A stretch of DNA of 64,000 nt, taken from positions 157 to 64,156 of the forward strand of contig JAZURI010000009.1 in the NCBI GenBank assembly GCA_045606105.1, written 5' to 3'. The notes below the pieces were generated by a model, which had not been told where the DNA came from, ran no database searches, and saw only the letters and a program-made list of their open reading frames with translations. This DNA comes from Spirochaetia bacterium (GTDB taxonomy: Bacteria; Spirochaetota; Spirochaetia; CADAEX01). A program made the translations under genes and the position numbers. The first letter of the stretch is position 1; each line of letters opens with the position of its first letter. Below are positions 5,003 to 24,441 of this stretch, piece by piece.

Positions 5003-6179
5003 CAAGAAGGCCCGCAAGGTCTGTCTCAAAACAGAAACCCTTCCTCTGGGAGAAAACGAAGGGATAATGCTTGGTGTGTGTTGCTGTGATGATTCCGAGG
5101 GAAACAGGGTGGTGCTGAAGGCTTTTTCCGGCCAATACAACGGGAAATGGGAACTGCCGGGATGGTGTCCTCCGGCTTTTGACATTGAAAAATATACCGG
5201 GATTGCCACAGAGGCAGACCTTAGGATAAAGGACCCTGCAACAGGGGCGGAGGAGAGAAGCCGGATTTCAGCCAAGGCCATGGAGAAAATTTTTTCACTT
5301 TATGAGATTCACTGCATGGATGGGTCAGTGAAAAAATTCTCTCAGATTTTTCCCGACGGAAAAATCCCTTCCGGGGCAGGGGACTGCTGTGCAGTCAAGC
5401 TTCTCAATTATGCCTACAGCCATTCCCTCCGCCCCGTAAGCCTGGCCGAGTTCTACCATGGCTCTGAAAACAGATCGGGAACCAGGATTCCGGGAGAGTT
5501 CTATCCGCCGTGTCAGGATAAATGCGGTCCTATCCTGAGGGCCATGCTGGGAATGGATATTCTTTATCTTGACCGTGATCTGGTGGTGATAAACAAGCCT
5601 GCAGGGCTTCTGTCGGTACCGGGCAGGGGAGAGGATAAACAGGATTGTGCGGTAAACAGGATCAAGGCCTTGTACCCCGGCTGTATAGACAACCCTGCAG
5701 TGCACCGCCTGGATATGGATACTTCAGGGCTGCTGGTGCTGGCCCTGACCAAGGAGGCTCATCGGGAGCTTTCAATGCAGTTCGAGGCCCGGACCGTGGA
5801 GAAGAAATATGTGGCGGTGCTGGACGGAATCCTGAAAAGCGACGGCGGAAGAATGGAGCTTCCCTTCAGGCTGGACCCTGACAACAGGCCCTATCAGGTT
5901 TACGACCGGGAGCATGGACGGATCGGAATTACCCTCTGGAAAAGACTCAGGGTTTACGACGGCAGGACCAGGGTGGAATTTGTTCCCCTTACAGGCCGTA
6001 CCCATCAGCTGAGAATCCATTCTGCCAGTCCCAAGGGGCTTGGTACGCCGATTGTGGGAGACCGTCTTTACGGAACCAGGAAAGAGGGAGAAAGGCTTCT
6101 TCTACACGCAGGTTACCTGAGCTTTGTTCACCCGTACACAAAAGAGAAAATAAGCTTTGAAGCAGAGGCCCCTTTTTAG
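4983..6179 (+). CDS. RluA-family pseudouridine synthase with a long Cys-rich N-terminal extension
   Basis: The C-terminal half has VVINKPAGLLSVPG and HRLDMDTSGLLVLALTK, the RluA catalytic-Asp motif. The N-terminal roughly 190 aa have no recognisable S4 domain. The start overlaps the MATE gene, so the true start may be further downstream. Confidence 0.7.
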   Translation: MINPFPDKKARKVCLKTETLPLGENEGIMLGVCCCDDSEGNRVVLKAFSGQYNGKWELPGWCPPAFDIEKYTGIATEADLRIKDPATGAEERSRISAKAMEKIFSLYEIHCMDGSVKKFSQIFPDGKIPSGAGDCCAVKLLNYAYSHSLRPVSLAEFYHGSENRSGTRIPGEFYPPCQDKCGPILRAMLGMDILYLDRDLVVINKPAGLLSVPGRGEDKQDCAVNRIKALYPGCIDNPAVHRLDMDTSGLLVLALTKEAHRELSMQFEARTVEKKYVAVLDGILKSDGGRMELPFRLDPDNRPYQVYDREHGRIGITLWKRLRVYDGRTRVEFVPLTGRTHQLRIHSASPKGLGTPIVGDRLYGTRKEGERLLLHAGYLSFVHPYTKEKISFEAEAPF

Positions 6180-7594
6180 ATCTTGTCGATAAGGATGGAG
6201 CATTTTCCCGAAGGAATAGGAAGTCTTTTCTTCTTGCTGCCCAGAATGTTGATGGTGAAATAATAGAGCTTCTCCGATTCCATGCGTACCTCCCATCCTC
6301 TTCCGCTCTTGTTCACAAGAATGGTAATCATGTTTCTCTTCAGGGAAAGTTCCTCGATTCCCATGATTTCCAGTGTCGGAATAGTCCAGTCCACAGTCTT
6401 TCTCGGCAGGCTGATATAGAGTCCTATTACATTTTCAATCATCAGGGTTATGGTGCTCAGAGCAACATAGGAGAGGAATTTCTTTCTAGGGAAATTCTTT
6501 TTTCCTTCCCATTTTGAAGGAACACCCTTTACAGGGGAATAGGCCTCGTACACATCATCCAGCTTTTCGCCGTCCGGATGGAGTGTTTCCAGTATGAAAT
6601 AGAGATGCCTGATGGCACATTCTCTGGCAAATTCGTATCTTTCGTATTTCTCAAGCCCCTTTATCACCATGAAGGTAAGGTGCGGATATACGGAGCCGCA
6701 GTACCCTTTTCCGTCCGGATTGTAGGAAGGATGATCTGAAGCCAGTGACGGGAACGGATTGTCTGTAGCAAAGCAGCCATCCACCAGAAGCCTTATTATC
6801 GCTTCGGCCCTGTCTTCGCAAGGAATCTGAGCCATGAGAACCCAGTAGGAGGCAAGGGTCTTTACCTTGATTTTCTCCTCGTGGCGGTTCAGGTCATAAT
6901 AGAACTGATCCTCCTCGTCCCACATCATGGAATCGATCCTGGTCTTGAGAGAATAATATTTTTTCTTGTATTTGAAGCTGATTTCCTTGTCGTTGAGAAT
7001 ATCTCCGATAGCAGACATATAGAATGCGTTCACAGCCATCTGAGAGTTGAAGTCGATAAGGTATGCAGCCTTTTCTCTCGGTGAGTTGTCCATCTGGGAA
7101 ACTGAAAGAGGGGTCTTGTAAAGTCCGTTTTTCTGCTGGAATCTTCCTTCGATCCACTCATAATATTTTTCAAGAACAGTGATGACCTCCTTGAGCCTTT
7201 TCTTCAGTCCCACCTTATGGTAGATGTTGAATTCCGCCCATGCAAAGAGTGGGGGAAAGAGACCTTCGGGATTATCCCGGGTAAAAACAGGTTCGCCGGT
7301 TTCTTCGTTGTACTGACCTCTGATGGCACCGGATTCTTCCTGTTTATTGTAGAAATTATCCAGGGCTGCTGTAGGGGAATAGGTTGAGTTGCTGTAAACC
7401 AGAAAGAATGAAGAAAGACAAGCTTCCAGCTGATTCATTACATTACCTTCCGGGTAGCTGTAATATTTGTTTGGGAAACCGTTCTTTTTACTGCCTTTTT
7501 TCCAGAAATCGCTTAACCAAATCCAGGTCTTGTTGTAGATATCTTCAAAGTCCTGATCATAGAAGTGAATTATCGGAAATCCTGTTTTAATCAT
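6176..7594 (-). CDS. Putative glycoside hydrolase ((alpha/alpha)6-barrel, GH63/MGH-like)
   Basis: 472-aa soluble protein rich in aromatic residues. Assignment is by overall resemblance only. Confidence 0.35.
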   Translation of the reverse strand: MIKTGFPIIHFYDQDFEDIYNKTWIWLSDFWKKGSKKNGFPNKYYSYPEGNVMNQLEACLSSFFLVYSNSTYSPTAALDNFYNKQEESGAIRGQYNEETGEPVFTRDNPEGLFPPLFAWAEFNIYHKVGLKKRLKEVITVLEKYYEWIEGRFQQKNGLYKTPLSVSQMDNSPREKAAYLIDFNSQMAVNAFYMSAIGDILNDKEISFKYKKKYYSLKTRIDSMMWDEEDQFYYDLNRHEEKIKVKTLASYWVLMAQIPCEDRAEAIIRLLVDGCFATDNPFPSLASDHPSYNPDGKGYCGSVYPHLTFMVIKGLEKYERYEFARECAIRHLYFILETLHPDGEKLDDVYEAYSPVKGVPSKWEGKKNFPRKKFLSYVALSTITLMIENVIGLYISLPRKTVDWTIPTLEIMGIEELSLKRNMITILVNKSGRGWEVRMESEKLYYFTINILGSKKKRLPIPSGKCSILIDKI

Positions 7595-8047: not shown

Positions 8048-9025
8048 ATGGAGTACAGGAATCCTGAGGTTGCCGCAAGGGTGGCCGAGGCTCACGGAAT
8101 CACTGAAAAGATTTTCGGAAACAAGGTATATATCAGAGGAATCATAGAATTCTCCAACTATTGCCGCAAGAACTGCAATTACTGCGGTATCAGACGGGAA
8201 AACCTGGATGTGAAGCGCTACAGGATGAGTGCGGACGAGATTGTGGAGGCCGCTGAAAGGAACCTGAAGCAGGGAATCAGGACCATTGTCCTGCAGTCTG
8301 GGGAGGACATGAGCTATTCCAGAGCCGATATGGTGGATATCATACAGCGCATCAAGGCAATAGATCCGGAATGTGCCATAACCCTGTCGATCGGAGAGAG
8401 ATCCCGTGAGGATTATGCAGCCTTCAAGGAGGCGGGAGCAGACCGTTTTCTCATGCGCTTCGAGACAGCGGACCGGGAGCTTTTTGCATCTCTTCATCCC
8501 GATGATGATTTTGATGTGAGACTTGAGGCACTCAGGAACCTGAAGGAGCTGGGTTACGAGACCGGCTCGGGCTTCATGATAGGGATTCCCGGAGAAAAAG
8601 AGGATGCGGACGACAGGAATATCGAGCTCCTGAAGGAAATAGGGGTTCATATGGTGGGATGCGGCCCTTTTATACCGGCAGCCGGCACCCCTATGGAGAA
8701 CGACGGAATACATGCGGATATGGAACGGTGCATGGATGTGTATGCCAAGGTAAGGCTTGCCCTGCCGGATGCAAACATTGCGGCGGCCACAGCGCTGGAT
8801 GCACTGGAGAAGGGGGCTCGGAAGATTTCCCTTTCCGTGGCAGCCAATGTAGTGATGCCCAACACCACTCCTATAAAATACAGAGATGACTATTCAATCT
8901 ACAGAAGAAAGGGAAAGCTGGACGAGAACCTGGCAGATGCCCATTATCTGGGACAGGAGCTGGAGAAGCTGGGATTTACCCCGATGTGGAACGTAAAAGG
9001 AAATTCAAGACTTAAAGGAGAATAA
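8048..9025 (+). CDS. hydE: Radical SAM protein, HydE-like ([FeFe]-hydrogenase maturase) / BioB family
   Basis: FSNYCRKNCNYCGIRREN contains the CxxxCxxC cluster motif in the context typical of HydE. Length 325 aa, with a TIM-barrel-like continuation. Confidence 0.55.
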   Translation: MEYRNPEVAARVAEAHGITEKIFGNKVYIRGIIEFSNYCRKNCNYCGIRRENLDVKRYRMSADEIVEAAERNLKQGIRTIVLQSGEDMSYSRADMVDIIQRIKAIDPECAITLSIGERSREDYAAFKEAGADRFLMRFETADRELFASLHPDDDFDVRLEALRNLKELGYETGSGFMIGIPGEKEDADDRNIELLKEIGVHMVGCGPFIPAAGTPMENDGIHADMERCMDVYAKVRLALPDANIAAATALDALEKGARKISLSVAANVVMPNTTPIKYRDDYSIYRRKGKLDENLADAHYLGQELEKLGFTPMWNVKGNSRLKGE

Positions 9026-9027
9026 CA

Positions 9028-9411
9028 ATGAGAATCGCAGTAACCTACGAAAACGGACAGATATTTCAGCATTTCGGACATACCGAAAGCTTCAAGATAT
9101 ATGATGTGGAAGAGGGCAAGGTAACAGAAAGCCGTGTCATGGGAACCGACGGACAGGGGCACGGAGCTCTGGCCTGTCTGCTGAGGGAAGCAGGAGCCGA
9201 GGTGCTTATCTGCGGAGGAATCGGCGGCGGTGCCAGAATGGCGCTGGAAGCGGCCGGAATCAGGCTTTATGGCGGGGTTTCAGGCTCCTGTGATGCTGCT
9301 GTGGAGGCGCTTCTGGCAGGTAAGCTGGAATACAATCCGGATGTAAAATGCAGCCACCACGGACACGACCACGGAGCAGGGCACAGCTGCGGCAGTCACA
9401 GGTGCGGGTGA
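9028..9411 (+). CDS. NifB/NifX-like dinitrogenase FeMo-cofactor-binding domain protein with a His-rich tail
   Basis: The 127-aa sequence MRIAVTYENGQIFQHFGHTESFKIYDV...ICGGIGGGA matches PF02579-type proteins. The C-terminus is HHGHDHGAGHSCGSHRCG. Confidence 0.7.
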   Translation: MRIAVTYENGQIFQHFGHTESFKIYDVEEGKVTESRVMGTDGQGHGALACLLREAGAEVLICGGIGGGARMALEAAGIRLYGGVSGSCDAAVEALLAGKLEYNPDVKCSHHGHDHGAGHSCGSHRCG

Positions 9412-9488: not shown

Positions 9489-10127
9489 TTACCACATTAC
9501 ATTCCTTTTGTGTTGTAAAAGATCAATCGCTTCCATTAACTTTCCGTATGCAGGATGCTTGTCCGTTATTTTTTTACATAGCCCACGCATATTTAACAGC
9601 AAATAATCAAGTCTATGTGATTGATTTCCTAAGTCAACCTTGTCATAAAATTCCTTGATGCTATTGTCGCCATTTTTTGCTTGATTGATTCTTATATAGT
9701 AATTCTCATCTCTAATGAAAGCCTCGGTTATCTCTGTCTCATCGGGATGAATTTTGTGAAGATCTTCATCCGGAATTTCTAGCATACTTTTGGCTCTATT
9801 ACAACCATAACAAGACAAAACCAGATTTTCTATGTATCCTGCATTAGCTTTTTTCTTTCCAAAGCGATCAGCTTCTTTGGGGATTAAATGGTCGATTTCA
9901 AACATTTGCCACGGAATAATTTCGGTAGACACCCCGCAATAGGCACATTTACCATTATATGCTTCTACAAATTGTTGTTTAAAAGGTTTATCGTTCCTTG
10001 AGATATATGTATGCATATCTTTTGCCCTAGGATGTTTTTCGCACACTGAATCTTTTACATCGTTTTTCTTTTTTGCCAGATTTGTAAGTGTAGGACAATA
10101 TTTTGAATTTCTATAATCGTCAGCCAT
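9489..10127 (-). CDS. HNH endonuclease domain protein
   Basis: CAYCG...EIDHLIPK...NLVLSCYGCN is a zinc-finger HNH motif. 212 aa. Its start overlaps the stop of the upstream receiver-domain gene (AATGGCTGA). Confidence 0.8.
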   Translation of the reverse strand: MADDYRNSKYCPTLTNLAKKKNDVKDSVCEKHPRAKDMHTYISRNDKPFKQQFVEAYNGKCAYCGVSTEIIPWQMFEIDHLIPKEADRFGKKKANAGYIENLVLSCYGCNRAKSMLEIPDEDLHKIHPDETEITEAFIRDENYYIRINQAKNGDNSIKEFYDKVDLGNQSHRLDYLLLNMRGLCKKITDKHPAYGKLMEAIDLLQHKRNVMW

Positions 10128-10716
10128 TTAAACTCTCCTGTATTTCTTTGAAAGCTAAAATCAAACTGTCAATATCGTCTTTTGTAAGTTTATCGTATGT
10201 ATTTGTACCTTCTAGCGTTGCAATAACCTTATCCTTTAAAACGTCTTCCCACGTATCATTTTTCCTAACCAAATCAGCCAGTAGCCGATATTGTTTAATA
10301 TCAGCTACCGCTTCATTGATGATTTTAGGGAGTTTCGAAGAATAATACTCAGAAGCAGATCCAGCGAGAGATTTATCATATTTTGCTATTTTTCTGATTT
10401 CCGAATCTGTACCATTCTGTGTGATGACAATTACTTCGATGAAAGGAAGCAACTTTTTGAGTATCAGTTTAAACTCTTCGCCGGTAAATTTTACATCGGC
10501 GGCAGTGCGGTTTTCAAAAAGCCACGAGTCAATTAGAATAATATTTGCGTTGCTAACTCTTTGATCAGAAAGTAAACTTTCGTATCCGTCTTCAGGATTA
10601 AATATTATTTCCGAACAAAGAATTTCATAATTATCACTTTTAAATTCTTCATCCAAATATCTAGTTAAAGCCGTTTCAGGATTATCATCAATATATACTA
10701 AAGAATACTTCTCCAT
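10120..10716 (-). CDS. Stand-alone response-regulator receiver (REC) domain protein with a C-terminal helical extension
   Basis: SLVYIDDNPE gives the acidic pair; ANIILIDSWL the phospho-acceptor Asp; IEVIVITQNGT the Thr; a Lys follows downstream. No output domain is recognisable. Confidence 0.6.
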   Translation of the reverse strand: MEKYSLVYIDDNPETALTRYLDEEFKSDNYEILCSEIIFNPEDGYESLLSDQRVSNANIILIDSWLFENRTAADVKFTGEEFKLILKKLLPFIEVIVITQNGTDSEIRKIAKYDKSLAGSASEYYSSKLPKIINEAVADIKQYRLLADLVRKNDTWEDVLKDKVIATLEGTNTYDKLTKDDIDSLILAFKEIQESLNG

Positions 10717-12857
10717 TATTTTGATCCTCCAATGGTAAATTCGATATGAAAACCGTTATTACCATCTATTTTAGTAATTTCACCGCTAGACATTGTAACA
10801 GTATTATTTACTATCCACATGCCAAGACCGTGTCCTTTTTTGCGTGTAGTCTCATGAACTTCTAGTATCTTTTCGGGATTTTTTAAATACTTTTTATCCA
10901 ACCCTTTTCCACTATCAGCATAAGAGAACAACAGTACACTTCCAGAGAGGGTTACACCAATTGTTATATCCAAATGATTAAGGCTTTCATTTTGCTGTAT
11001 GCTGTTGAGGATTAGATTATCAAAAATCACTTGCAAATAATCTTCCGATATCATAAAGCAAAGATTATCATCCATATTGATTGTGATACTGATCCAAGCA
11101 TAGTCATTTTCCCAGTTCTTTTTAATTCGCTGAATAATATCATTAATGCTTTGCCAAGAAGGTTCAAATTGTTTCTTTTCTATTTCTGAAAGCATTGTAT
11201 TCATAAAAGCCAACAATTTCGAGCTTACTTGTTTATTTGTTTCTAAAAGATAAGGCACATTTTGATAAGACTTTTCGGTATACTCTGGTGAAGTTAGTTC
11301 ATCCCACATATCAAATTTCTTCAATGCGGCAACAATATTATCAATATTGTCAGCAACCGAATTTCTATCATTTCTCATTTCGTGTGCAATTGATGATGCT
11401 TTCAACCCAACGGTTGCTAACACATTTAGGATTCGAACATCATATTTGTATCTCGTTTCTACATCATCACGCTCACGTTGTGCTTCTGTATGCGCTTTTT
11501 GATACGCCTTGATTTCAGCCGCCAACAACATAGTTTCCTCTTTGGATAAATTAGCCACTGAACTGGGATTAGATACGATTTTTTCACTAACAGGTGCTTG
11601 CTTTTCTTCAACAGGGGCGTTCTTAACATTTATGTGACGAATAATATTTTGACGATATCTTTCAAAACCTTTTATGCCGGAAAGCACGATTTCAACAAAC
11701 AATTCATAAAAAATATTTTCGTCTAAGCCCTGTCTGTTTGAAAGATCCTGCAATACACCGTTACGCTGTTTATCAATTTCCACTTTGCCTGCCATTTGGT
11801 TTTCTCTTACACGCCAAGAACCCGTTGGGTGTGTTGCAGCAGCAGGAGATTTTCTGGAACGTTTTCCAAAACCAAGCCAGTCTTTTTTACCTTCGTAGGA
11901 AGATATACTAAAGGCATTTCGATAAAGAATAACACCCTTTAGCGCCTCACTTGGTAAAGTGTAATGTTTATATAAGAATTTTTCGACATCAGCTTTGGTA
12001 GGGCTAATTGTGAAAGAAAATTCCGCAGAAAAATCGCCTAGTTGTAGCAAATTGTTTTTGAGTTCATTTTCAGATAATTCCCATTGATCATTCGCTTTAA
12101 GTTCATCGAAAATATCAATTGTCTGAAAATAATACTTCAAATCAATGTCTTTACAATACTTTTCTGCTGCATCTAAAAACTCATCCGAAACAACCTCGGT
12201 AGTTAAAGTGTGCGTAGTGCTATCATATTTCAAGTTGATTTTTGCCAAACAATTAATGCCGGGAATCAGCTCCGTGATATATGATGTGATCTCCGTATTG
12301 ATATCTGGATGCGATACAATAATCCTCATAACATTATCGTTATAGGTTTTAGATAGGAACAAAACGAGATTTTCAATTTTCTTTTTATTCCACTTGATTC
12401 TAAGATTCTTTATAATAATTTTTGTGCCTTGTTCAGTGATAGTTTCATCAATAGCTACTGTAGAAGTATTCCAATCGGTTTCCCATACGACACCGGGGAA
12501 CCCATCTTTTTGGGAAAATACAGAAGTGGCTTCACCAAGTCTTGCTAAAGCAAAACGTCCAACACCCTTGGAACCAGCCAAAACTCTAATTTGATTGTTT
12601 TCTAAAACGGTACTATATTTTTTTGGACTCTTGCCAACATGCATCCAGTTTGTCTTAATATCATTGATATTCATTCCTGTTCCATCATCGATTACTGTAA
12701 GAATGTCATTTTCGAAGATTAACTTTACAAAAGAGGCACTTGCGTCATATGCATTTTTCACCAGTTCAAGAATTGCGGATTCGTCAGTAGAAAAGTTTTG
12801 TTTACCCAATAATTCGGAAATGGTTTTATCCTCAATTACATATTGTAGTTTTTCCAT
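10716..12857 (-). CDS. Histidine kinase with an additional N-terminal GHKL (HATPase_c_3/MORC-MutL-like) ATPase domain
   Basis: N-terminal ELVKNAYDA, IDDGTGM and GSKGVGRFA boxes. Central ASSIAHEMRNDRNS H-box. C-terminal IFDNLILNSIQQN (N-box), YADSGKGLD (G1) and KKGHGLGMWIV (G2). Confidence 0.7.
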   Translation of the reverse strand: MEKLQYVIEDKTISELLGKQNFSTDESAILELVKNAYDASASFVKLIFENDILTVIDDGTGMNINDIKTNWMHVGKSPKKYSTVLENNQIRVLAGSKGVGRFALARLGEATSVFSQKDGFPGVVWETDWNTSTVAIDETITEQGTKIIIKNLRIKWNKKKIENLVLFLSKTYNDNVMRIIVSHPDINTEITSYITELIPGINCLAKINLKYDSTTHTLTTEVVSDEFLDAAEKYCKDIDLKYYFQTIDIFDELKANDQWELSENELKNNLLQLGDFSAEFSFTISPTKADVEKFLYKHYTLPSEALKGVILYRNAFSISSYEGKKDWLGFGKRSRKSPAAATHPTGSWRVRENQMAGKVEIDKQRNGVLQDLSNRQGLDENIFYELFVEIVLSGIKGFERYRQNIIRHINVKNAPVEEKQAPVSEKIVSNPSSVANLSKEETMLLAAEIKAYQKAHTEAQRERDDVETRYKYDVRILNVLATVGLKASSIAHEMRNDRNSVADNIDNIVAALKKFDMWDELTSPEYTEKSYQNVPYLLETNKQVSSKLLAFMNTMLSEIEKKQFEPSWQSINDIIQRIKKNWENDYAWISITINMDDNLCFMISEDYLQVIFDNLILNSIQQNESLNHLDITIGVTLSGSVLLFSYADSGKGLDKKYLKNPEKILEVHETTRKKGHGLGMWIVNNTVTMSSGEITKIDGNNGFHIEFTIGGSK

Positions 12858-12858
12858 T

Positions 12859-14286
12859 TCATTGCCCTCCTATAAAAAGATAGTTATTGATATCTTTACA
12901 AGTTACTCGTAATGATTTACCGCTAATGTTTATGCCTATATTTTGGACATACCGTAAAAATTGCTCGCTTTTAAGTATTTCAACAGCATCGTTTAGATTA
13001 TAAGCAGGGTTTTTCACGGTAATATATATTCCTGAAAAAGGAATCGTATTGGCATCCACTTCATAAACTTCGACTGTATTTGTGATTATTGTAGAAATAA
13101 GAAGTTTTTCCTTATTTAAGTGTGCCAAGGCTTGTGATCTGCCGTACTCAAACCAAGTTGCTTTTTCATCACTATTTCTTGCGTCAAGTTCTTTAGAGTA
13201 CTGTCTTAAATGTTTTGCCGTATTCGGAAAAAGCTCTTCGAAGGTTTCTTCGGAGTATCGGCACAGTCCCTTATCATCATAGAAATAAGGGAAAATTATT
13301 TTTTTCTTTTTCTTATATCTTAGAGTATTGGGACTCACTGCATCCCTCAAGATATTTTGTTCCAAGTTCTCTTCACCAATGCACGCATCATCCACTATAA
13401 ATGCCTTATTATAAAGGGTTGCGATAGTTATTGAGGCGTGAAAAATATCGCCAAACCTAAGCATTTTCTGAGTGTTGTTGTTAGGAATTGAAAACATCCA
13501 TTTGTCACCAAGAGAGTGACGACAAAGACTTCTTTTTGTGCCTTCAGTAACGTTTTCATAGTGTATGTTTTCATTTGAGTTTTCTTTGTCGTATAAAAAT
13601 ATGCTTACTGATGTCAAGGTTTTATCGAATAATTTTTGATCCGGATAATCTAGCACAGTAGCAATATGGTCTACAAGAAGTTCCCTTAATTTTTTCGCAA
13701 AAACATTCTTATAAATGTTATTGGGAATTAATTGAACAAGTTTTCCAGTTTCTTTCAGGTGTTTAATGCCCGATTCAATGAAAGCATAACAGTAGTCAAA
13801 TTTTCCGATTGCACACGACTCAAATTTCTTTTTAAGTGATATCCTACTGTCTTCGTCCATTTCTTTATAAGAAATGTAAGGAGGGTTACCAATAATATAA
13901 TCGAAAGAAATGTTAAGGTTTATAGACAATGCGTTATCATTGAAAAGCTTCCAGTCTACAGAAGGAATGTTATAGGATTCGAGTATGGCATTTAATTCTA
14001 AAATACAGTTATCGTAAAGAGTTTTATCCAATTCAATCCCATATACATCTTGAGCTAATCCTGCTGAAATAGATACTAAATCAACACCTGCTGCGATAGC
14101 GCTTTCTATATATCTAACAACAATTGCTTTTAGAATGTTACCTGAACCAAATGAGTTCTCTAATATAGTTTTTCCCATAAGGTCTGTGTTATAATTCACA
14201 AGATTCAACATTGTATCTACCAACGCTGAAGGTGTGAATTTTTGGCACTTGGTTTTATTTTTGCCGATTTCTAATATAGAACTCAT
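12859..14286 (-). CDS. N6-adenine DNA methyltransferase (type II, gamma-class)
   Basis: FTP...ENSFGSGNIL (SAM-binding motif I) and IIGNPPY (motif IV). 475 aa. Confidence 0.8.
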   Translation of the reverse strand: MSSILEIGKNKTKCQKFTPSALVDTMLNLVNYNTDLMGKTILENSFGSGNILKAIVVRYIESAIAAGVDLVSISAGLAQDVYGIELDKTLYDNCILELNAILESYNIPSVDWKLFNDNALSINLNISFDYIIGNPPYISYKEMDEDSRISLKKKFESCAIGKFDYCYAFIESGIKHLKETGKLVQLIPNNIYKNVFAKKLRELLVDHIATVLDYPDQKLFDKTLTSVSIFLYDKENSNENIHYENVTEGTKRSLCRHSLGDKWMFSIPNNNTQKMLRFGDIFHASITIATLYNKAFIVDDACIGEENLEQNILRDAVSPNTLRYKKKKKIIFPYFYDDKGLCRYSEETFEELFPNTAKHLRQYSKELDARNSDEKATWFEYGRSQALAHLNKEKLLISTIITNTVEVYEVDANTIPFSGIYITVKNPAYNLNDAVEILKSEQFLRYVQNIGINISGKSLRVTCKDINNYLFIGGQ

Positions 14287-14311
14287 TTTATCACCATTTA
14301 TTACTTAAAAT

Positions 14312-15319
14312 TTATTTCCACAGATCGTCCAAGTTTTTCGCCTTTGAAATTAGTTCATAAGATGAATATCTTGGCGCCTGCGGAGCTTGGCCTTTCTTCT
14401 TTCCAAGACCAATTTTATTGATTTCTACCGTTGTGTTTGGCTTGAAATAGAGAATGTATTTGTTAGTATCTTTATACTTATCAATGCGCTCAACTTCGGC
14501 TATATGAGTAATGCCTGAAACCGGTGCAACTTGATATGCGGCAATGTACTTGATTTTATCAAGCATTGCTCCGGAAATGCGAACGGCATACCAACGATTG
14601 TTCTTCAAGAACTCTTCGTTAAAACCATCTTCACGAGCGGGTACGACAATAGTATTCAACTCATCAGCATCCTCAACGACAGGAAGATCGGTGAGAACAG
14701 CATCGTTAAAAGGCGTAAACCTATGCAGCTTTTTATCCCCACATATGTATGTCTGTGCTTCAATAACGTCTGTTGCCATTGTAAGCTGCCCCAATACATT
14801 GTAGAGTTCTTCTGTCGCTTCGTCGATAATAATGATTGCTGAAGGTTTATTCTCAAAAATTACTTTATCCAGTAACTCGTTAATATTGTCGTATTTGGAT
14901 TGCTTGAAAAATTCTTTTAGCGTTGCTTTTTTAGCCGCATCTTTATTTATTGCTTCAAGTAATAGGTTCTTCATTTTATATTTATCTGTTTCTGAAGAAA
15001 TACCAAAACGAAGAATCTGTTCACCGATATGTCCGTAAACATCGTGGCTTTGAAGTTCTACTTCTACAAGATATAAACGAGGATCATTATGGAAAGTCAA
15101 ATCAAGATAATATCCGTCAGGTATGGCTGCACCTTTTTTAGGCTTGCCAATCAATTTCTTCATAGCAAAATAGATGCCATTTCCTCCAAATATGGCTTCG
15201 GAGTTATCAATAATCATAGATTCGAATTCCGACTCGCCGTCATATTTATACAGTGTGTATGTAGTACCGTTTTCATCTATAATCTTGTACATAGATATTT
15301 TCCCTTTACTATACATCAA
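14312..15319 (-). CDS. Hypothetical protein, possible cognate restriction endonuclease of the adjacent methyltransferase
   Basis: 335-aa AT-rich ORF 25 bp downstream of the methyltransferase on the same strand. No confident catalytic motif; contains IPDGYYLD...VEVELQ. Confidence 0.3.
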   Translation of the reverse strand: MMYSKGKISMYKIIDENGTTYTLYKYDGESEFESMIIDNSEAIFGGNGIYFAMKKLIGKPKKGAAIPDGYYLDLTFHNDPRLYLVEVELQSHDVYGHIGEQILRFGISSETDKYKMKNLLLEAINKDAAKKATLKEFFKQSKYDNINELLDKVIFENKPSAIIIIDEATEELYNVLGQLTMATDVIEAQTYICGDKKLHRFTPFNDAVLTDLPVVEDADELNTIVVPAREDGFNEEFLKNNRWYAVRISGAMLDKIKYIAAYQVAPVSGITHIAEVERIDKYKDTNKYILYFKPNTTVEINKIGLGKKKGQAPQAPRYSSYELISKAKNLDDLWK

Positions 15320-15367
15320 ACTAAAAGTTTTGACAAAAGTTTGATATTATTTACCTTAATGGCAGTT

Positions 15368-15526
15368 TTATATCAATATATTATGTTGCATCTCTCTGTG
15401 CATAGGTTTCACTTCAGTAAACTCCTGAAATTCGTTAAGTAACCCTTTGAAAATAGTTAATATTCCAACCAAGACAACTGTGCCACCACCAACTGCAGTA
15501 AGCAGATGTTCCAACCACTCAGGCAT
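15368..15526 (-). CDS. Possible 52-aa single-TM micro-protein
   Basis: GGTGGAG RBS then ATG. Translation is MPEWLEHLLTAVGGGTVVLVGILTIFKGLLNEFQEFTEVKPMHREMQHNILI. It is below the ORF-track length cut-off and sits within an operon context. Confidence 0.3.
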   Translation of the reverse strand: MPEWLEHLLTAVGGGTVVLVGILTIFKGLLNEFQEFTEVKPMHREMQHNILI

Positions 15527-15593
15527 AATCTCCACCTCATTTCAACCTTTCACATAGCGGCAGGATTTCTTCTAGTTTGGTAAAGAAATAAAC

Positions 15594-16514
15594 TTATACC
15601 AAATGTTTCGGGACATCTGATGCAGAACTCATAATTTTTTCTTTTTCTGCATTGCGAATTCTGTCCGCCATTTTCTGAATTTTACTTGTTATCCACATAT
15701 GAGCGGTAGTTCCTTCAGAATAGTCTGCTTCTGCATACATATCTACACGACCGTCTGCTCGCATTTGCTCCACTTGTTGCATGGCATCTTTGTCACCTTT
15801 GGGATATATTGCAAAAGTAGCTCCACCATTTTGCTTAACCACGGAAAAAGCAGGAATATCACTGGGACCGTCTGCAATATAAATCATATTTTTAAAATGA
15901 ACTCGTCTATATTCTTCAGGTATTTTAGAATTAACTTCGATTCCATCAAGTTTTTCGATGCCTTTATTGATTTCAAATAAAGCTCGAGTTTTTGTAGTGT
16001 TATCAATTGTATATAGAATCTCGCTTATAATTAGATTTCCATTTTCGTCTGGAGCGTCCAGCAACTCACACCCCCAGATGCCATCTACGTATGGCTTTAA
16101 AACAGAACCACGGATAATCTCAGCAAAACCAGTACTTACAATGTAATGTTCTACTTGAATTCCATATTCTGAGTAGCTTTTATCATCTTTGAACATATTT
16201 TTTGTTTGCTCAAAAATTTCAGGAATACCTTTATAGAATTTTTGTTTTGCCCCATACTCATGGAGTTTTTTATTATTCAAACCAGAAAGCGTCCCGTCAT
16301 GAGCACATTTTATAAAATGATTAAGATAGTATGTATCCTTATTTACACGAATTCCTTTTGCTTTATACTCGGATGGAATTAAATCAACTTGTTTCCAAAA
16401 ATCTCCGGATTTAATATTATATTCTTCAAAAATCGGGTCTTGCATATAACCATCAATTAGAGTTTTGTCACAATCCCAAATTACAGCAATAATGTTTGCC
16501 ATATTTTTCCTCAC
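15594..16514 (-). CDS. HAD-superfamily hydrolase-like protein
   Basis: IAVIWDCDKTL supplies motif I (DxDxT) and MIYIADGPSDIP is motif IV-like (DGxxD). 306 aa, embedded between hsdS and the type II pair. Confidence 0.55.
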   Translation of the reverse strand: MRKNMANIIAVIWDCDKTLIDGYMQDPIFEEYNIKSGDFWKQVDLIPSEYKAKGIRVNKDTYYLNHFIKCAHDGTLSGLNNKKLHEYGAKQKFYKGIPEIFEQTKNMFKDDKSYSEYGIQVEHYIVSTGFAEIIRGSVLKPYVDGIWGCELLDAPDENGNLIISEILYTIDNTTKTRALFEINKGIEKLDGIEVNSKIPEEYRRVHFKNMIYIADGPSDIPAFSVVKQNGGATFAIYPKGDKDAMQQVEQMRADGRVDMYAEADYSEGTTAHMWITSKIQKMADRIRNAEKEKIMSSASDVPKHLV

Positions 16515-16518
16515 TTTC

Positions 16519-17913
16519 TTATTTCAATTTTTCACACAGTGGCAAGATTTCTTCCAGTTTGGCAACGATACGATTTTGCTCTGAAACTGGCGGTACGGGA
16601 ACGACTGCTCTATAAAGGCGATCATCATTTATCGCAGGATAGGCTACGCCTTTAGCATTCTCCGTATCATTGGCGTAGTTATCAAAAGAGGGTGATAACA
16701 AGTAATAGAATAAGTATTTATTATTAACACCCTTAAAACAAGTCATTGCAGCAAAGCCCGTACTTGCAATTGGCTCCAAACTGAATTCACGGTCAATGAT
16801 ACACATATTGTGGAGATACGGTCTAACTGTAGAATAAAGAATATCGCCCATTTGAACAATTTTCCTTGCTCGGGAAGGCGCTTTGTTTGCCTCTGTAATA
16901 TTGTCCTCGGGGTTTAGCCTTTGTCGCTTATTATCAATAGAACCTATATCTATATAACAAAATGTCTTGTTCGGTATTTTCTGTCCACGATTGTATACAA
17001 GATCTTGTAACCTTGCCCAAATCCATGTTTCAGGGATATCAAAGGGAACTTCATCTTCGTCAATTGTAGGGTATGATTTTCCTTTTTTTACTTTGCCAGC
17101 TTTTATCATGGCTTGTCTTTTTGTCTGGATCTCCCAGAACAAATCTTCTCCATTACCTTCTTCTGGGAGTTGGGGAACCAGTTTACCCTGAATGGCCATT
17201 TGGAGAATGGATTTCTGCATATCCGCAGGGAACCGTTTGTTGAAGTCCTCCAGCTTGCTCCACGCCTGATCATAGCGGTCGATCAGTGGCAACAATTCCT
17301 CAATTTTTGCCACAATGCGCTTCTGCTCGGCAAGCGGAGCAACAGGAATGGAGATTTCCTTTAGTTTCTTTATACTTACACCACCGATAATTCCAGTCAT
17401 ATTCCCTGAAAATAGCTCTTTGAACAACCAGCTCTGCAGATAGTAATATAGGTACCTATTATCAATGCCCTGAGCGTGAAAACAGCAGAGCTTATTGCCA
17501 AAGCAGACATCCCTATCAAGTATTCCAATCTTACGTCCTGCACTTCCGCCTTCAATACACATCAATACAGCATCTTTATGCGCCACCTTAAATCCTTCGT
17601 TATATGGGATTCTGACGCCATTGTCATAACAGATTTCTTGATTAAAGGTTACATCTTTTGTGGCGATGTAATCATATCCTGTTTCCAGTCCAGCATATTT
17701 TGCTGATTTGACTGTTTCGGCAATGCTATTTCCGGTATACATTTCGCAACATAAGCCTAAAGTTGACCAAACCCAAGTTTCAGGAACATCAAACGGTATT
17801 TCCGACAATTCGATTGTCTTAACTCCTCCAAAATCTTTGGTTTCAACATGTTCACAAAGTTTACCAGTGAATGCGTTACCTAAAATGCTATATTTAAACT
17901 CCTGCGGTGTCAT
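16519..17913 (-). CDS. hsdS: Type I restriction-modification specificity subunit HsdS (two target-recognition domains)
   Basis: Duplicated conserved spacers LAEQKRIVAKIEELLPLIDRY and VSEQNRIVAKLEEILPLCEKL. The stop overlaps the hsdM start. Confidence 0.85.
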   Translation of the reverse strand: MTPQEFKYSILGNAFTGKLCEHVETKDFGGVKTIELSEIPFDVPETWVWSTLGLCCEMYTGNSIAETVKSAKYAGLETGYDYIATKDVTFNQEICYDNGVRIPYNEGFKVAHKDAVLMCIEGGSAGRKIGILDRDVCFGNKLCCFHAQGIDNRYLYYYLQSWLFKELFSGNMTGIIGGVSIKKLKEISIPVAPLAEQKRIVAKIEELLPLIDRYDQAWSKLEDFNKRFPADMQKSILQMAIQGKLVPQLPEEGNGEDLFWEIQTKRQAMIKAGKVKKGKSYPTIDEDEVPFDIPETWIWARLQDLVYNRGQKIPNKTFCYIDIGSIDNKRQRLNPEDNITEANKAPSRARKIVQMGDILYSTVRPYLHNMCIIDREFSLEPIASTGFAAMTCFKGVNNKYLFYYLLSPSFDNYANDTENAKGVAYPAINDDRLYRAVVPVPPVSEQNRIVAKLEEILPLCEKLK

Positions 17914-19430: not shown

Positions 19431-19435
19431 ATAAT

Positions 19436-21811: not shown

Positions 21812-21923
21812 TTATCCTTATTATCCCTTTTCTATCTTATCATATAAAAATAATATTTCAATATTTTTATCTTGAAGCAAAGTACCGGATTTCTTCTGTG
21901 AATTAGAAGAAAAGGGAATTCTT

Positions 21924-23261: not shown

Positions 23262-23733
23262 AATTGATTTTTTCAGATATTGTGAAATTTCCGTTTGTTC
23301 AAAAAATCGTTTCGGTCTCTGTGATCCCCGGACACAGACTCCGGCCTATATTGATTTCTACAATTTCGATAGCTGGATTGCAGTTGTGGAAAACGATCTT
23401 GAAAAAGAAATTGGATTTCTTGCTGTTGACCATAATGTTCCTTTTCCCGTGGATAAGAAAAGATGTGATGCCCTCCTTTTTGATAAAGAGATGCTGTTGT
23501 TCGTGGAACTAAAAAAACAGAGAGGAAGCTGGCTTCCTGAAGCTTTAGTTCAGCTGACGGATACAGTGGAGTTCTTTAAGGAGAATCATGATGTGTCAGT
23601 ATATAAAAACCGTAAGGCTTATGCTTGCAATAAGTGTCATCCCAACTTTAATTTCAGTTATAAGGAGTATATGCAGGATTTTCGAAAACGACACGGATTT
23701 ATTTTGAGAATCAGCACAGAAATAAAAATCTGA
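23251..23733 (+). CDS. Small protein with a PD-(D/E)xK-like motif, partner of the AAA15 ATPase
   Basis: Start overlaps the ATPase stop. VDHN...CDALLFDKEMLLFVELKK gives D...ExK spacing typical of restriction-fold nucleases. 160 aa. Confidence 0.4.
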   Translation: MADRIDFFRYCEISVCSKNRFGLCDPRTQTPAYIDFYNFDSWIAVVENDLEKEIGFLAVDHNVPFPVDKKRCDALLFDKEMLLFVELKKQRGSWLPEALVQLTDTVEFFKENHDVSVYKNRKAYACNKCHPNFNFSYKEYMQDFRKRHGFILRISTEIKI

Positions 23734-23736
23734 TTC

Positions 23737-24351: not shown

Positions 24352-24441
24352 ATTGTAACACAGAAACGGGAAGTTGAAAATGAGAAAAAGCAAATCTGAA
24401 ATTTTCTTTCAATCTCCCGGCTAAATTTGAAATAAACCCAT

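What the first reader, a model, noticed from the sequence alone, without database searches (positions are those of the whole stretch)
10716..12857. One polypeptide carries two Bergerat-fold ATPase domains: an N-terminal MORC/MutL-type GHKL and a C-terminal histidine-kinase catalytic domain
The N-terminal roughly 130 aa carry the N-box, G1 and G2 boxes ELVKNAYDA, IDDGTGM and GSKGVGRFA, spaced as in HATPase_c_3-type proteins (MutL, MORC, Hsp90). The C-terminal roughly 230 aa carry an H-box (SSIAHEMRNDRNS) and a second set of N, G1 and G2 boxes typical of sensor kinases. MORC-like GHKL ATPases have been predicted to partner with restriction-modification systems. Fusing one in place of a sensor domain would suggest that DNA or nucleotide-state sensing is wired into a phosphorelay. 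About 300 aa between the two modules have no recognisable domain.
Basis: seen in the sequence. Interest (0 to 1): 0.65.

Follow-up and report, generated by a model that had tools for sequence, protein, structure and literature searches.

The report
Sensor kinase of an Ambrosia-like defence operon
The gene does encode one protein with an Hsp90/MutL/MORC-type ATPase fused to a histidine kinase, but this design is already described: it is the sensor of a four-gene methylase–kinase–receiver–nuclease phage-defence operon related to the recently validated "Ambrosia" system.

Summary
The ORF at 10716-12857 lies on the minus strand and encodes 713 aa. It has an N-terminal HATPase_c_3 GHKL domain (E 4.5e-15) and a C-terminal H-box plus HATPase_c kinase core (E 8e-14). 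All catalytic residues are conserved across more than 1,900 homologues.

The "unassigned" middle is an Hsp90/MORC-like transducer domain followed by a helical linker and the DHp helices. The gene is translationally coupled to three others: an N6-adenine methyltransferase upstream, then a 198-aa stand-alone receiver (DD10-11, D63, T99, K115) and an HNH nuclease downstream.

This four-gene module recurs in 52 of 79 surveyed species across many phyla. The architecture and its restriction-modification (R-M) linkage were described in 2021 (HEF_HK/Response_reg_2). A homologous Pseudomonas operon, Ambrosia (AbrA-D), was shown in a 2025 preprint to block phage. There, mutations in the N-terminal ATPase Asn, the receiver Asp and the HNH His each abolished defence.

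The window copy is a divergent Clostridia member, 27% identical to AbrB. It has no XRE regulator and sits in a low-GC defence island.

What the kinase senses, and whether the receiver acts on transcription or directly on the nuclease, remains open.

The parts
12859..14286 (-). N6-adenine DNA methyltransferase (475 aa), AbrA-like. It is the first gene of the operon. It carries FGSG (motif I) and NPPY (motif IV).
   Evidence: Pfam Eco57I 4e-21 and N6_Mtase 3.5e-15; PADLOC MTase_II 1e-45. The motifs were located. A homologue is adjacent to the kinase (position -1 or +3) in 58/79 loci. Ambrosia AbrA matches the family HMM at 5.4e-37.
10716..12857 (-). The finding: a 713-aa dual-GHKL sensor histidine kinase (AbrB-like). 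It starts 1 nt after the MTase stop codon.
12468..12782 (-). N-terminal GHL-type ATPase domain (aa 26-130), with catalytic E31, Mg-binding N35, D57 and the Gly-rich lid.
   Evidence: Pfam HATPase_c_3 4.5e-15. NCBIfam BbrUII/HgiDII REase family 1.2e-16 and MutL 1e-8. PDB sequence hits to Hsp90, TRAP1 and MutL. K34, N35, D38, D57, G59, G61, G95, G98 and G100 are invariant in 79 sequences.
11613..12452 (-). Middle/transducer domain and connecting helices (aa about 136-415). It includes the most conserved non-ATP-site block, YR.AF...YEG..DWLG.G.R...SP (aa 312-338), and the invariant R375.
   Evidence: AF2 model with pLDDT mostly 80-95 for aa 110-300. Foldseek aligns 450-490 columns with Hsp90 N+M and 461 columns with MORC2.
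11175..11543 (-). DHp helices (aa about 439-561) with the phospho-accepting His492 (codon 11382-11384) in the H-box SSIAHEMRN.
   Evidence: NCBIfam AtoS alignment over aa 470-695. H492 is invariant in A2 and at least 90% in A6. The codon was checked. This stretch of the monomer AF2 model has low confidence.
10728..11159 (-). Catalytic ATP-binding (CA) domain of the kinase (aa about 567-710): N-box N614/N618, G1 D648/G650/G652, G2 G675/G677/G679.
   Evidence: Pfam HATPase_c 8.2e-14. PDB YycG/ZraS CA domains at 1.6e-5 and 3.9e-5. Foldseek to ZraS and YycG cytoplasmic domains.
10120..10716 (-). Stand-alone receiver (REC) protein of 198 aa (AbrC-like). Active-site residues are D10, D11, D63 (codon 10528-10530), T99 and K115. 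It has an acidic, all-helical C-terminal tail of about 80 aa. Its ATG overlaps the kinase TAA by 1 nt.
   Evidence: There is no Pfam hit for this protein on its own. The syntenic family is REC: 30/62 members match PF00072, and the family profile hits PDB receivers at 1e-10. hhalign of the window subfamily against the rest gives 97% probability, E 5e-11. The AF2 model has pLDDT 79 and its top Foldseek hits are REC domains. AbrC matches the family HMM at 6.7e-34.
9489..10127 (-). HNH endonuclease of 212 aa (AbrD-like, PtuB/retron-HNH type). It has CxxC 61/64, the D79-H80 catalytic His, N101, and CxxC-N 106/109/110. It overlaps the REC gene by 8 nt.
   Evidence: Pfam HNH 2.3e-8; PADLOC PtuB 1.8e-12; NCBIfam retron HNH TIGR02646. 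The sequence is and the codons. It is at position +2 in 56/79 loci. AbrD matches the family HMM at 2.3e-42.

Best explanation
The ORF is the sensor kinase (AbrB homologue) of a four-gene, horizontally acquired R-M-like anti-phage operon of the Ambrosia type. The gene order is N6-adenine methyltransferase, then dual-GHKL histidine kinase, then stand-alone receiver, then HNH nuclease. SHOWN HERE: an intact Hsp90/MutL/MORC-type ATPase plus transducer module takes the place of the usual sensor domain. A helical linker joins it to a HisKA-type DHp (His492) and CA domain. The next gene is a receiver with all five canonical active-site residues. The four genes are translationally coupled and co-occur across many phyla. 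SHOWN BY OTHERS for the Pseudomonas homologue (a preprint): the cluster blocks phage, and defence is lost in AbrB N40A (the N-terminal ATPase Asn, equivalent to N35 here), AbrC D60A (D63 here) and AbrD H60A (H80 here). INFERRED mechanism: ATP-driven closure or dimerisation of the N-terminal GHKL/transducer module is triggered by an infection cue, plausibly foreign or unmodified DNA or a nucleotide-state change. This closure is transmitted through the linker helices to switch on trans-autophosphorylation of His492. The phosphoryl group then passes to Asp63 of the receiver, and the phospho-receiver unleashes the HNH nuclease. It could do so by raising operon transcription (the preprint's model) or by acting directly on the nuclease. 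The methyltransferase supplies the DNA-modification component, but its role is unresolved. It may mark self DNA for protection, or it may create the nuclease's substrate.
For: Domains and motifs. Conservation of both ATP sites and of His492 over 37 and 79 relatives. Structure: Hsp90 N+M, MORC2 and HK cytoplasmic domains. Receiver identity. Synteny in 79 species-level loci: REC at +1 in 67, HNH at +2 in 56, MTase adjacent in 58, all three in 52. The same order is seen in close relatives and on a Bacteroides plasmid. Homology to all four Ambrosia proteins: AbrB residues 1-400 are 27% identical to the window kinase (E 4e-28) and match the family HMM at 5.6e-88. AbrC matches at 6.7e-34, AbrD at 2.3e-42 and AbrA at 5.4e-37. 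Experimental data are from the preprint. The overlapping or 1-nt junctions, and GC of 34% for the operon against 47% outside the island, are. The operon lies in a defence island with type I R-M, PDC-S34, PDC-M29 and PDC-S04.
Against: No biochemistry exists for any member: autophosphorylation, phosphotransfer, DNA binding and the trigger are all untested. The window operon lacks the XRE regulator AbrR that belongs to the five-gene Ambrosia. Identity to AbrB is only 27%, and I could not run the authors' own HMM thresholds. The DHp region of the AF2 monomer has low confidence. The only experimental support is a non-peer-reviewed preprint. [quoted passage not shown]
Confidence: 0.8

Rival explanations
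1. The phosphorelay gates the nuclease post-translationally and not through transcription. The phospho-receiver, whose output is only a short acidic helical tail, would bind, release or activate the HNH protein directly. The kinase's paraMORC module would act as the DNA or methylation-state reader. This is a variant of the best explanation at its last step.
For: None of the 62 receiver homologues carries a Pfam DNA-binding domain. The C-terminal tail is net acidic in 47/62. A profile of the tail finds only helical bundles in the PDB and no HTH. The AF2 model shows three helices and no wing. Its best structural matches extend into REC-plus-long-helix proteins. The REC and HNH genes overlap by 8 nt, and the REC-then-HNH order holds in 56/79 loci. 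The HNH is of the PtuB/retron-effector type. From general knowledge, PtuB-type nucleases work in complex with a partner ATPase.
Against: The Ambrosia preprint reports a wHTH in AbrC. It also reports infection-induced expression of reporters placed at the abrA and abrD positions. No REC-HNH fusion protein was found among the loci. No co-folding or interaction data are available here. The absence of an HTH hit is negative evidence only.
Confidence: 0.35
2. It is simply the restriction subunit of a conventional type II R-M system, which is how automated tools would label it. The GHKL protein would be the REase, partnered with the adjacent MTase, and the kinase part would be incidental.
For: PADLOC REase_II models hit the protein (2e-10 and 6e-7). 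NCBIfam BbrUII/HgiDII restriction enzyme family hits at 1.2e-16. DefenseFinder likewise tags AbrB as a type II REase, according to Table S1 of the preprint.
Against: Those hits cover only aa about 11-255, the shared GHKL module. The NF050001 score is 60 bits against a cutoff of 550. No nuclease domain is detectable in the 713 aa, whereas a separate HNH gene is conserved in the operon. The H-box and CA residues, and a cognate receiver, are conserved.
Confidence: 0.04
3. It is an ordinary cytoplasmic two-component system that regulates host genes and merely sits next to R-M genes in a mobile island.
For: The H, N, G1 and G2 boxes and the receiver are canonical. RefSeq annotates homologues just as 'sensor histidine kinase'.
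Against: The kinase-receiver-HNH-MTase linkage is conserved across phyla with overlapping genes. The receiver has no recognisable output domain. The homologous cluster is required as a whole for phage defence.
Confidence: 0.05
4. The C-terminal kinase is a degenerate pseudo-kinase used only as a dimerisation scaffold for the N-terminal ATPase. In that case there would be no phosphorelay.
For: The N-terminal ATP-site residues are conserved more strictly than the kinase residues. They are invariant in 79/79, whereas H492, N614, N618, G650, G675, G677 and G679 are conserved in at least 90%.
Against: His492, both N-box Asn residues and the G1 and G2 glycines are still conserved in at least 90% of sequences at 20-25% identity. 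The receiver keeps D63 in 60/62 and T/S99 in 60/62. AbrC D60A abolishes defence.
Confidence: 0.05

Closest known systems
Ambrosia anti-phage system of Pseudomonas aeruginosa: AbrR-AbrA-AbrB-AbrC-AbrD (van den Berg et al., bioRxiv 10.1101/2025.09.30.679545, 30 Sep 2025)
   Same: The gene order is the same: N6-MTase, then HATPase_c_3+HATPase_c kinase, then REC, then HNH. All four proteins are homologous. The residues mutated there are present here: AbrB N40 corresponds to N35, AbrC D60 to D63 and AbrD H60 to H80. Protein sizes are similar: 747/209/213 aa there against 713/198/212 aa here.
   Different: The relationship is distant, 27% identity over the first 400 aa of AbrB. The window has no XRE/HipB-like AbrR; the upstream slot holds an unrelated 326-aa gene instead. 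The host is a Clostridia gut bacterium, whereas Ambrosia was reported only in Gammaproteobacteria (537 instances). I found no evidence for the wHTH the authors assign to AbrC.
HEF_HK (PF19191) / Response_reg_2 (PF19192) 'TCS-like' pairs linked to R-M systems and paraMORCs (Bellieny-Rabelo et al., Genome Biol Evol 2021, PMC8011034)
   Same: The overall architecture is identical: HATPase_c_3, then a DHp with a conserved His, then HATPase_c, soluble, followed by a receiver-like gene and embedded among R-M genes. The authors drew the same inference that the N-terminal GHKL replaces the sensor domain.
   Different: The window kinase and 70 of 71 relatives tested do not match PF19191; the single hit has E 0.005. 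The partner does not match PF19192, and its family resembles canonical PF00072. The published group is associated mainly with C5-cytosine MTases, Vsr and HNH_2, whereas this branch has N6-adenine MTase plus HNH. That work was purely computational.
Prokaryotic MORC/paraMORC GHKL+S5 ATPases of R-M systems (Iyer, Abhiman & Aravind, Biol Direct 2008, PMC2292703). [quoted passage not shown]
   Same: An N-terminal GHKL with intact ATPase motifs is followed by a transducer-like domain. The operon context includes methylases and HNH nucleases, and there is lateral mobility.
   Different: The C-terminal half here is a complete histidine-kinase core. Whether paraMORC1 is this same family could not be checked because no accessions were available to me. 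The MORC-specific signature motif was not tested.
BbrUII/HgiDII family type II restriction enzymes (NCBIfam NF050001)
   Same: They share the N-terminal GHKL module and part of the following domain: aa 17-255 align to profile positions 13-270 at E 1.2e-16.
   Different: The score of 60 bits is far below the 550-bit family cutoff. The C-terminal halves are unrelated, a kinase core here against a nuclease or recognition part there.
Septu (PtuA ATPase + PtuB HNH) and retron-associated HNH effectors
   Same: The nuclease is of the same HNH subtype (PADLOC PtuB 1.8e-12; TIGR02646) and is paired with an ATPase that presumably controls it.
   Different: The controlling ATPase here is a GHKL-histidine kinase acting through a receiver protein, not an ABC/AAA_15-type ATPase. 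A methyltransferase is also part of the module.

Membership tests
Ambrosia defence system (AbrR/A/B/C/D) | AbrB: one protein with an N-terminal HATPase_c_3 and a C-terminal HATPase_c | tested here: met
   Pfam. BLASTP to AbrB(1-400) gives 27% identity and E 4e-28. AbrB matches the family HMM at 5.6e-88.
Ambrosia defence system (AbrR/A/B/C/D) | AbrC: an adjacent receiver with the phospho-acceptor Asp (D60 in AbrC) | tested here: met
   D63 is in register. AbrC matches the receiver family HMM at 6.7e-34 over its full length.
Ambrosia defence system (AbrR/A/B/C/D) | AbrD: an HNH nuclease downstream of the receiver | tested here: met
   Pfam HNH 2.3e-8. AbrD matches the family HMM at 2.3e-42. The catalytic H80 aligns with AbrD H60.
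Ambrosia defence system (AbrR/A/B/C/D) | AbrA: an N6-adenine MTase upstream of the kinase | tested here: met
   Pfam Eco57I/N6_Mtase and the NPPY motif. AbrA matches the family HMM at 5.4e-37, although direct BLASTP is weak at E 0.005.
Ambrosia defence system (AbrR/A/B/C/D) | AbrR: a HipB-like XRE regulator as the fifth gene | tested here: not met
   There is no HTH ORF next to the operon. The upstream gene is an unrelated 326-aa protein and the downstream genes are NifX-like and radical SAM. Some 82%-identical relatives do have an HTH_26 gene upstream.
Ambrosia defence system (AbrR/A/B/C/D) | Scores above the authors' HMM thresholds (AbrA 100, AbrB 500, AbrC 150, AbrD 200 bits) | not testable with these tools
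   The authors' HMMs are not available here. The thresholds are quoted.
Ambrosia defence system (AbrR/A/B/C/D) | Confers phage resistance | not testable with these tools
   This needs an experiment. It has been shown only for the P. aeruginosa homologue.
HEF_HK / Response_reg_2 TCS-like pair (Pfam PF19191 / PF19192) | Match to PF19191 HEF_HK in the kinase | tested here: not met
   There is no hit even at E<=10 for the window protein. Relatives give 0/37 and 1/34 hits, the one hit at E 0.005.
HEF_HK / Response_reg_2 TCS-like pair (Pfam PF19191 / PF19192) | Adjacent gene matching PF19192 Response_reg_2 | tested here: not met
   There is no hit for the 198-aa protein. Among 62 syntenic homologues, 1 matches PF19192 and 30 match PF00072.
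HEF_HK / Response_reg_2 TCS-like pair (Pfam PF19191 / PF19192) | Architecture HATPase_c_3 + His-containing DHp + HATPase_c, soluble, with R-M neighbours | tested here: met
MORC / paraMORC ATPases | N-terminal GHKL with an intact ATPase site (catalytic Glu, Mg-binding Asn, Asp, Gly-rich loops) | tested here: met
   E31, N35, D57, G59, G61, G95, G98 and G100 are conserved. Pfam HATPase_c_3.
MORC / paraMORC ATPases | GHKL followed by an S5-fold transducer domain | tested here: inconclusive
MORC / paraMORC ATPases | MORC-family-specific signature motif (Iyer et al. 2008) | not tested
   The motif is not given in the accessible text, so only the term 'paraMORC-like' is justified.
HisKA-type two-component sensor histidine kinase | H-box His in DHp plus N, G1 and G2 boxes in the CA domain | tested here: met
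   H492-E493-x-x-N496. N614 and N618; D648, G650 and G652; G675, G677 and G679.
HisKA-type two-component sensor histidine kinase | Cognate receiver with the acidic pair, phospho-Asp, Thr/Ser and Lys | tested here: met
   D10, D11, D63, T99 and K115. Family counts are 60/62, 60/62, 60/62 and 52/62.
HisKA-type two-component sensor histidine kinase | Autophosphorylation and phosphotransfer | not testable with these tools
   This needs biochemistry.
BbrUII/HgiDII type II restriction enzyme (NF050001) | Full-length match above the curated cutoff (550 bits) | tested here: not met
   The score is 60.4 bits and covers the N-terminal 255 aa only.

The most novel reading that the evidence does not exclude
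The most novel reading not excluded is that the His-Asp phosphorelay is the self/non-self decision line of a restriction system, not a transcriptional switch. In this reading the paraMORC-type ATPase module clamps or scans DNA and reads its modification or nucleotide state. That event licenses autophosphorylation. The phospho-receiver has no detectable DNA-binding output in 62/62 homologues, and it would directly switch on the co-translated HNH nuclease. This would be a phosphorylation-gated restriction enzyme. It would be spread far beyond Gammaproteobacteria, across Bacillota, Bacteroidota, Gastranaerophilales, Chloroflexota, Nitrospinota and Patescibacteria.
Probability: 0.3. Interest if true: 0.7.

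Novelty: new member of a known kind. Interest (0 to 1): 0.33.

Why it matters
The protein answers a specific question: what happens when the sensor domain of a histidine kinase is replaced by a complete Hsp90/MutL/MORC-type ATPase engine. Together with its receiver, nuclease and methylase it forms a compact module in which immune signalling appears to run through classical two-component chemistry.

The design has been noticed before (2021) and one homologue has been validated (2025 preprint), so the window copy is not a discovery of kind. It does add three things.
- The four-gene module is far more widely distributed than the "Gammaproteobacteria" range reported for Ambrosia. 52 of 79 species-level loci from many phyla carry it.
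- The XRE regulator is dispensable for the conserved core.
- The receiver's output looks more like a protein-interaction tail than a DNA-binding domain, which questions the published transcription-only model.

Current annotation pipelines call these genes [quoted passage not shown] or "type II REase". The system is therefore systematically mislabelled in genomes.

Tried and rejected
1. MADS (methylation-associated defence system). NCBIfam gave weak MAD2/MAD5 hits to neighbouring type I R-M genes. The MADS preprint mentions a histidine kinase only as a genomic landmark, so it is unrelated.
2. Membership in Pfam HEF_HK/Response_reg_2. I tested this at permissive thresholds on the window proteins and on 71 relatives, and it was not met.
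3. A narrow profile of the 198-aa subfamily against PDB sequences found nothing. Receiver identity only emerged from the broader syntenic family, from profile-profile comparison and from the structure model.
4. Search for an AbrR-like XRE gene beside the window operon. None was found.
5. The 335-aa ORF directly upstream (14312-15319) as a fifth system gene. I rejected this because it is absent from the other 78 loci. It also occurs alone or beside Hachiman and type I R-M elsewhere.
6. Rosetta-stone REC-HNH fusions as evidence for direct coupling. None were found among the loci.
7. A wHTH in the receiver tail. Pfam, a PDB profile search and the AF2 secondary structure gave no support. This is negative evidence only.
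9. Internal duplication as the origin of the two GHKL domains. I rejected this because they show no detectable similarity.
10. Phage-borne copies. Only two N-terminal-fragment hits turned up in phage records.


Full report
**1. The observation**

The coordinates 10716-12857 delimit an ORF on the minus strand. The + strand reading is full of stops.
- ELVKNAYDA at aa 31-39
- IDDGTGM at aa 56-62
- GSKGVGRFA at aa 95-103
- SSIAHEMRNDRNS at aa 488-500

It also has a second set of N, G1 and G2 boxes at aa 613-681.

Profile searches show these are not chance matches.
- Pfam HATPase_c_3 covers aa 26-130 at E 4.5e-15.
- Pfam HATPase_c covers aa 605-697 at E 8.2e-14. Both are well above the curated cutoffs.
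- NCBIfam aligns aa 470-695 with the DHp+CA of AtoS at 4.5e-14.
- NCBIfam aligns aa 17-255 with the BbrUII/HgiDII restriction-enzyme family at 1.2e-16, and with MutL at 1e-8.
- PDB sequence hits split the same way: Hsp90, TRAP1 and MutL for the N-terminus, YycG and ZraS for the C-terminus.

The two GHKL domains have no detectable similarity to one another. This is a fusion of two GHKL clades and not a duplication.

**2. Is the fusion real and conserved?**

A search of 5.8 billion proteins returned more than 1,900 homologues. The top 120 are almost all 713-726 aa with both Pfam domains. An exhaustive scan of 1.84 billion cluster representatives gave 243 clusters at E<1e-30, mostly full length.

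In 37 relatives at 25-50% identity the following are invariant: E31, N35, D38, D57, G59, G61, G95, G98 and G100 in the N-terminal ATPase site; H492; and N614, N618, G677 and G679 in the kinase. D648, G650, G652 and G675 are conserved in at least 90%. In 79 sequences down to about 20% identity the N-terminal site remains invariant, and H492 and the kinase boxes remain at 90% or above.

**3. The middle region**

An AlphaFold2 model has mean pLDDT 70, with 80-95 over aa 110-300 and low values in the DHp helices, as expected for a monomer. Compared with the PDB it aligned over 450-490 columns with Hsp90 and TRAP1 N-terminal plus middle domains. It aligned over 461 columns with MORC2, and over about 250 columns with histidine-kinase cytoplasmic domains such as ZraS and YycG.

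**4. Surroundings**

The kinase gene is the second of four tightly packed minus-strand genes.

| Coordinates | Product | Key evidence |
|---|---|---|
| 12859-14286 | N6-adenine methyltransferase | Eco57I/N6_Mtase, NPPY; PADLOC MTase_II 1e-45 |
| 10716-12857 | dual-GHKL kinase | starts 1 nt after the MTase stop |
| 10120-10716 | 198-aa protein with no database hit | its ATG overlaps the kinase TAA |
| 9489-10127 | HNH nuclease | CxxC...DH...N...CxxCN; PADLOC PtuB 1.8e-12; overlaps the previous gene by 8 nt |

The operon has 34% GC, against 47% for the window outside the island. It lies in a defence island with PDC-S34, an EcoAI-family type I R-M system, PDC-M29 and a Fic/PDC-S04 gene.

**5. The 198-aa protein is a receiver**

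I fetched 80 loci, one per species, from the genome collection. I called ORFs and compared neighbours in 79 loci, the window plus 78 fetched loci in which the kinase ORF was recovered.

The gene immediately downstream of the kinase is about 200-230 aa in most loci. An alignment of 62 of these shows the CheY signature. Of these, 30/62 match Pfam Response_reg (best 3.5e-10). The family profile hits solved receiver domains at 1e-10 to 1e-7.

The window's own subfamily is too narrow to reach the PDB alone. However, it aligns with the rest of the family at 97% hhalign probability, E 5e-11, with the key residues in register.

The conserved residues are:
- D10-D11 (an acidic pair in 60/62)
- D63 (60/62)
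- T99 (T or S in 60/62)
- K115 (K or R in 52/62)

The AF2 model (pLDDT 79) has receiver domains as its best structural matches.

After the receiver fold comes a tail of about 80 aa made of three helices. The tail is net acidic in 47/62 homologues. It carries no Pfam DNA-binding domain in any of the 62. As a profile it finds only helical bundles in the PDB.

**6. Conservation of the module**

In 79 loci the receiver is at +1 in 67, and the HNH homologue is at +2 in 56. A homologous MTase is directly upstream or directly after the HNH in 58. All three are present in 52, and several of the rest are cut by contig ends.

Complete modules occur in Bacillota, Bacteroidota, Pseudomonadota, Mycoplasma sp. 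CAG:956, Gastranaerophilales, Chloroflexota, Nitrospinota, Desulfobacterales and Paceibacterota. A Bacteroides finegoldii plasmid carries it too. It is annotated there as [quoted passage not shown].

Close relatives (78-82% identity) keep the same four genes.

**7. What is already known**

*(a) Iyer et al. 2008 (PMC2292703).* They defined prokaryotic MORC and paraMORC GHKL+S5 ATPases as R-M components. They mention a paraMORC1 family with an unexplained C-terminal extension and HNH neighbours. This may be the same family, but I could not check.

*(b) Bellieny-Rabelo et al. 2021 (PMC8011034).* They described exactly this architecture, HATPase_c_3 + DHp (HEF_HK, PF19191) + HATPase_c, next to a receiver-like gene (Response_reg_2, PF19192) and R-M genes. 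They proposed that the N-terminal GHKL replaces the sensor. The window kinase and 70 of 71 relatives do not match PF19191, and the partner does not match PF19192. So this is a sister branch, not that Pfam family.

*(c) van den Berg et al., bioRxiv 30 Sep 2025.* They validated "Ambrosia" in P. aeruginosa: AbrR (XRE), AbrA (N6-MTase), AbrB (HATPase_c_3+HATPase_c, 747 aa), AbrC (REC, 209 aa) and AbrD (HNH, 213 aa).
- The cluster blocks siphophages and myophages.
- A point mutation in each predicted functional domain abolishes defence. The constructs include AbrB N40A (the Asn of the N-terminal ELVKN box), AbrC D60A and AbrD H60A.
- Reporters at the abrA and abrD positions are induced on infection.
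- AbrA methylation does not protect phage.
- The system was reported only in Gammaproteobacteria.

Using the sequences in their Table S1, all four proteins are homologous to the window's.

| Comparison | Result |
|---|---|
| AbrB(1-400) vs window kinase, BLASTP | 27% identity, E 4e-28 |
| AbrB vs kinase-family HMM | 5.6e-88 |
| AbrC vs receiver HMM | 6.7e-34, full length |
| AbrD vs HNH HMM | 2.3e-42 |
| AbrA vs MTase HMM | 5.4e-37 |

**8. Differences from Ambrosia**

The window has no XRE regulator. The gene in that slot is a 326-aa conserved hypothetical. It is independent of the system, because it occurs alone or next to Hachiman and type I R-M elsewhere and is absent from the other loci. 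Some 82%-identical relatives do carry an HTH_26 gene upstream.

I found no support for a wHTH in the receiver. The host is a Clostridia gut bacterium; the nearest named relatives are Oscillospiraceae, Lawsonibacter and Clostridium.

**9. Mechanism**

*Shown here:* the architecture, the intact catalytic residues in both ATP sites, the His and the receiver, the coupled operon and the conserved synteny.

*Shown by others, for a 27%-identical homologue, in a preprint:* the defence phenotype and the requirement for the N-terminal ATPase Asn, the receiver Asp and the HNH His.

*Inferred:* ATP-dependent closure of the GHKL/transducer module on an infection cue switches on His492 autophosphorylation. 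The phosphoryl group passes to Asp63, and the phospho-receiver releases HNH activity.

The output step is open. The preprint favours transcriptional induction. The sequence evidence here makes direct gating of the nuclease a serious alternative: an acidic helical tail, no HTH, an 8-nt REC/HNH overlap and a PtuB-type effector. I put it at about 0.35.

The role of the methylase is also unresolved. It may protect self DNA or create the nuclease's substrate.

**10. Verdict**

The feature is a new, divergent member of a known kind, not a new kind.

Residual interest lies in three points:
- The distribution is much wider than published.
- The XRE regulator is dispensable for the conserved core.
- The input and output of the phosphorelay are still unknown.

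Noticed in passing
window 14312-15319 (-), probable true start at 15292 (326 aa): A conserved hypothetical protein lies 25 nt upstream of the methyltransferase on the same strand. It has about 2,400 homologues, mostly 326-328 aa, and no hit in Pfam, PADLOC, PHROGs or the PDB. Elsewhere it sits alone (Qiania dongpingensis) or between a type I R-M system and Hachiman (HamA/HamB). It looks like an unannotated single-gene defence-island resident.
   Followed up: partly
window 15594-16514 (-): A 306-aa protein matches the PADLOC candidate defence family PDC-S34 (E 1.3e-61). It has only a weak HAD-like Pfam hit.
   Followed up: no
window 16519-21811 (-): A complete type I R-M system: hsdS 16519-17913, hsdM 17910-19430 and hsdR 19436-21811. 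The hsdR is EcoAI/FtnUII family, 1079 bits against a cutoff of 550.
   Followed up: no
window 21924-23733 (+): A two-gene PADLOC candidate system, PDC-M29. It consists of an AAA_15/AAA_21 ATPase (445 aa, PDC-M29A at 9e-120) and a 160-aa partner (PDC-M29B at 3e-49).
   Followed up: no
window 23737-24393 (-): A Fic/DOC-domain protein matches PDC-S04 (5e-103). It marks the far end of the defence island.
   Followed up: no
window 9489-24393 versus the rest: The island is compositionally foreign. GC is 34.4% for the four-gene operon and 37.5% for the whole island, against 47.4% for the remaining window. It is flanked by housekeeping-type genes: radical SAM at 8048-9025, a Nitro_FeMo-Co/NifX-like gene at 9028-9411, and a glycoside hydrolase at 6176-7594.
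   Followed up: partly
loci L044, L053, L055, L059, L061, L065, L066, L070-L073, L076, L079: A lower-scoring sub-branch of dual-GHKL kinases is followed by a longer (358-458 aa) protein. That protein keeps an N-terminal DD...D...K receiver-like pattern but has a large extra C-terminal region. The next gene is not the HNH of the main branch. This may be a variant system with a different effector.
   Followed up: partly
L049 (Nitrosopumilus sp. chromosome), L045 (Candidatus Paceibacterota): The kinase-receiver pair also occurs in an archaeon, where no HNH or MTase homologue was detected beside it. The complete four-gene module occurs in a CPR/Patescibacteria genome. Both are far outside the Gammaproteobacteria range reported for Ambrosia.
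   Followed up: no
L056 10533-11162 (Niallia taxi): There is a 630-bp gap without a called ORF exactly where the receiver gene is expected, between the kinase and the HNH. It may be a disrupted receiver gene or an unusual start codon.
   Followed up: no
alignment A7 (kinases of 34 loci): Two of the 34 dual-GHKL kinases carry a hit to Rv2175c_wHTH (PF21531, best E 1.7e-4) and one to EcoRII-N (E 0.005). This hints that some family members have acquired DNA-binding modules within the kinase itself.
   Followed up: no
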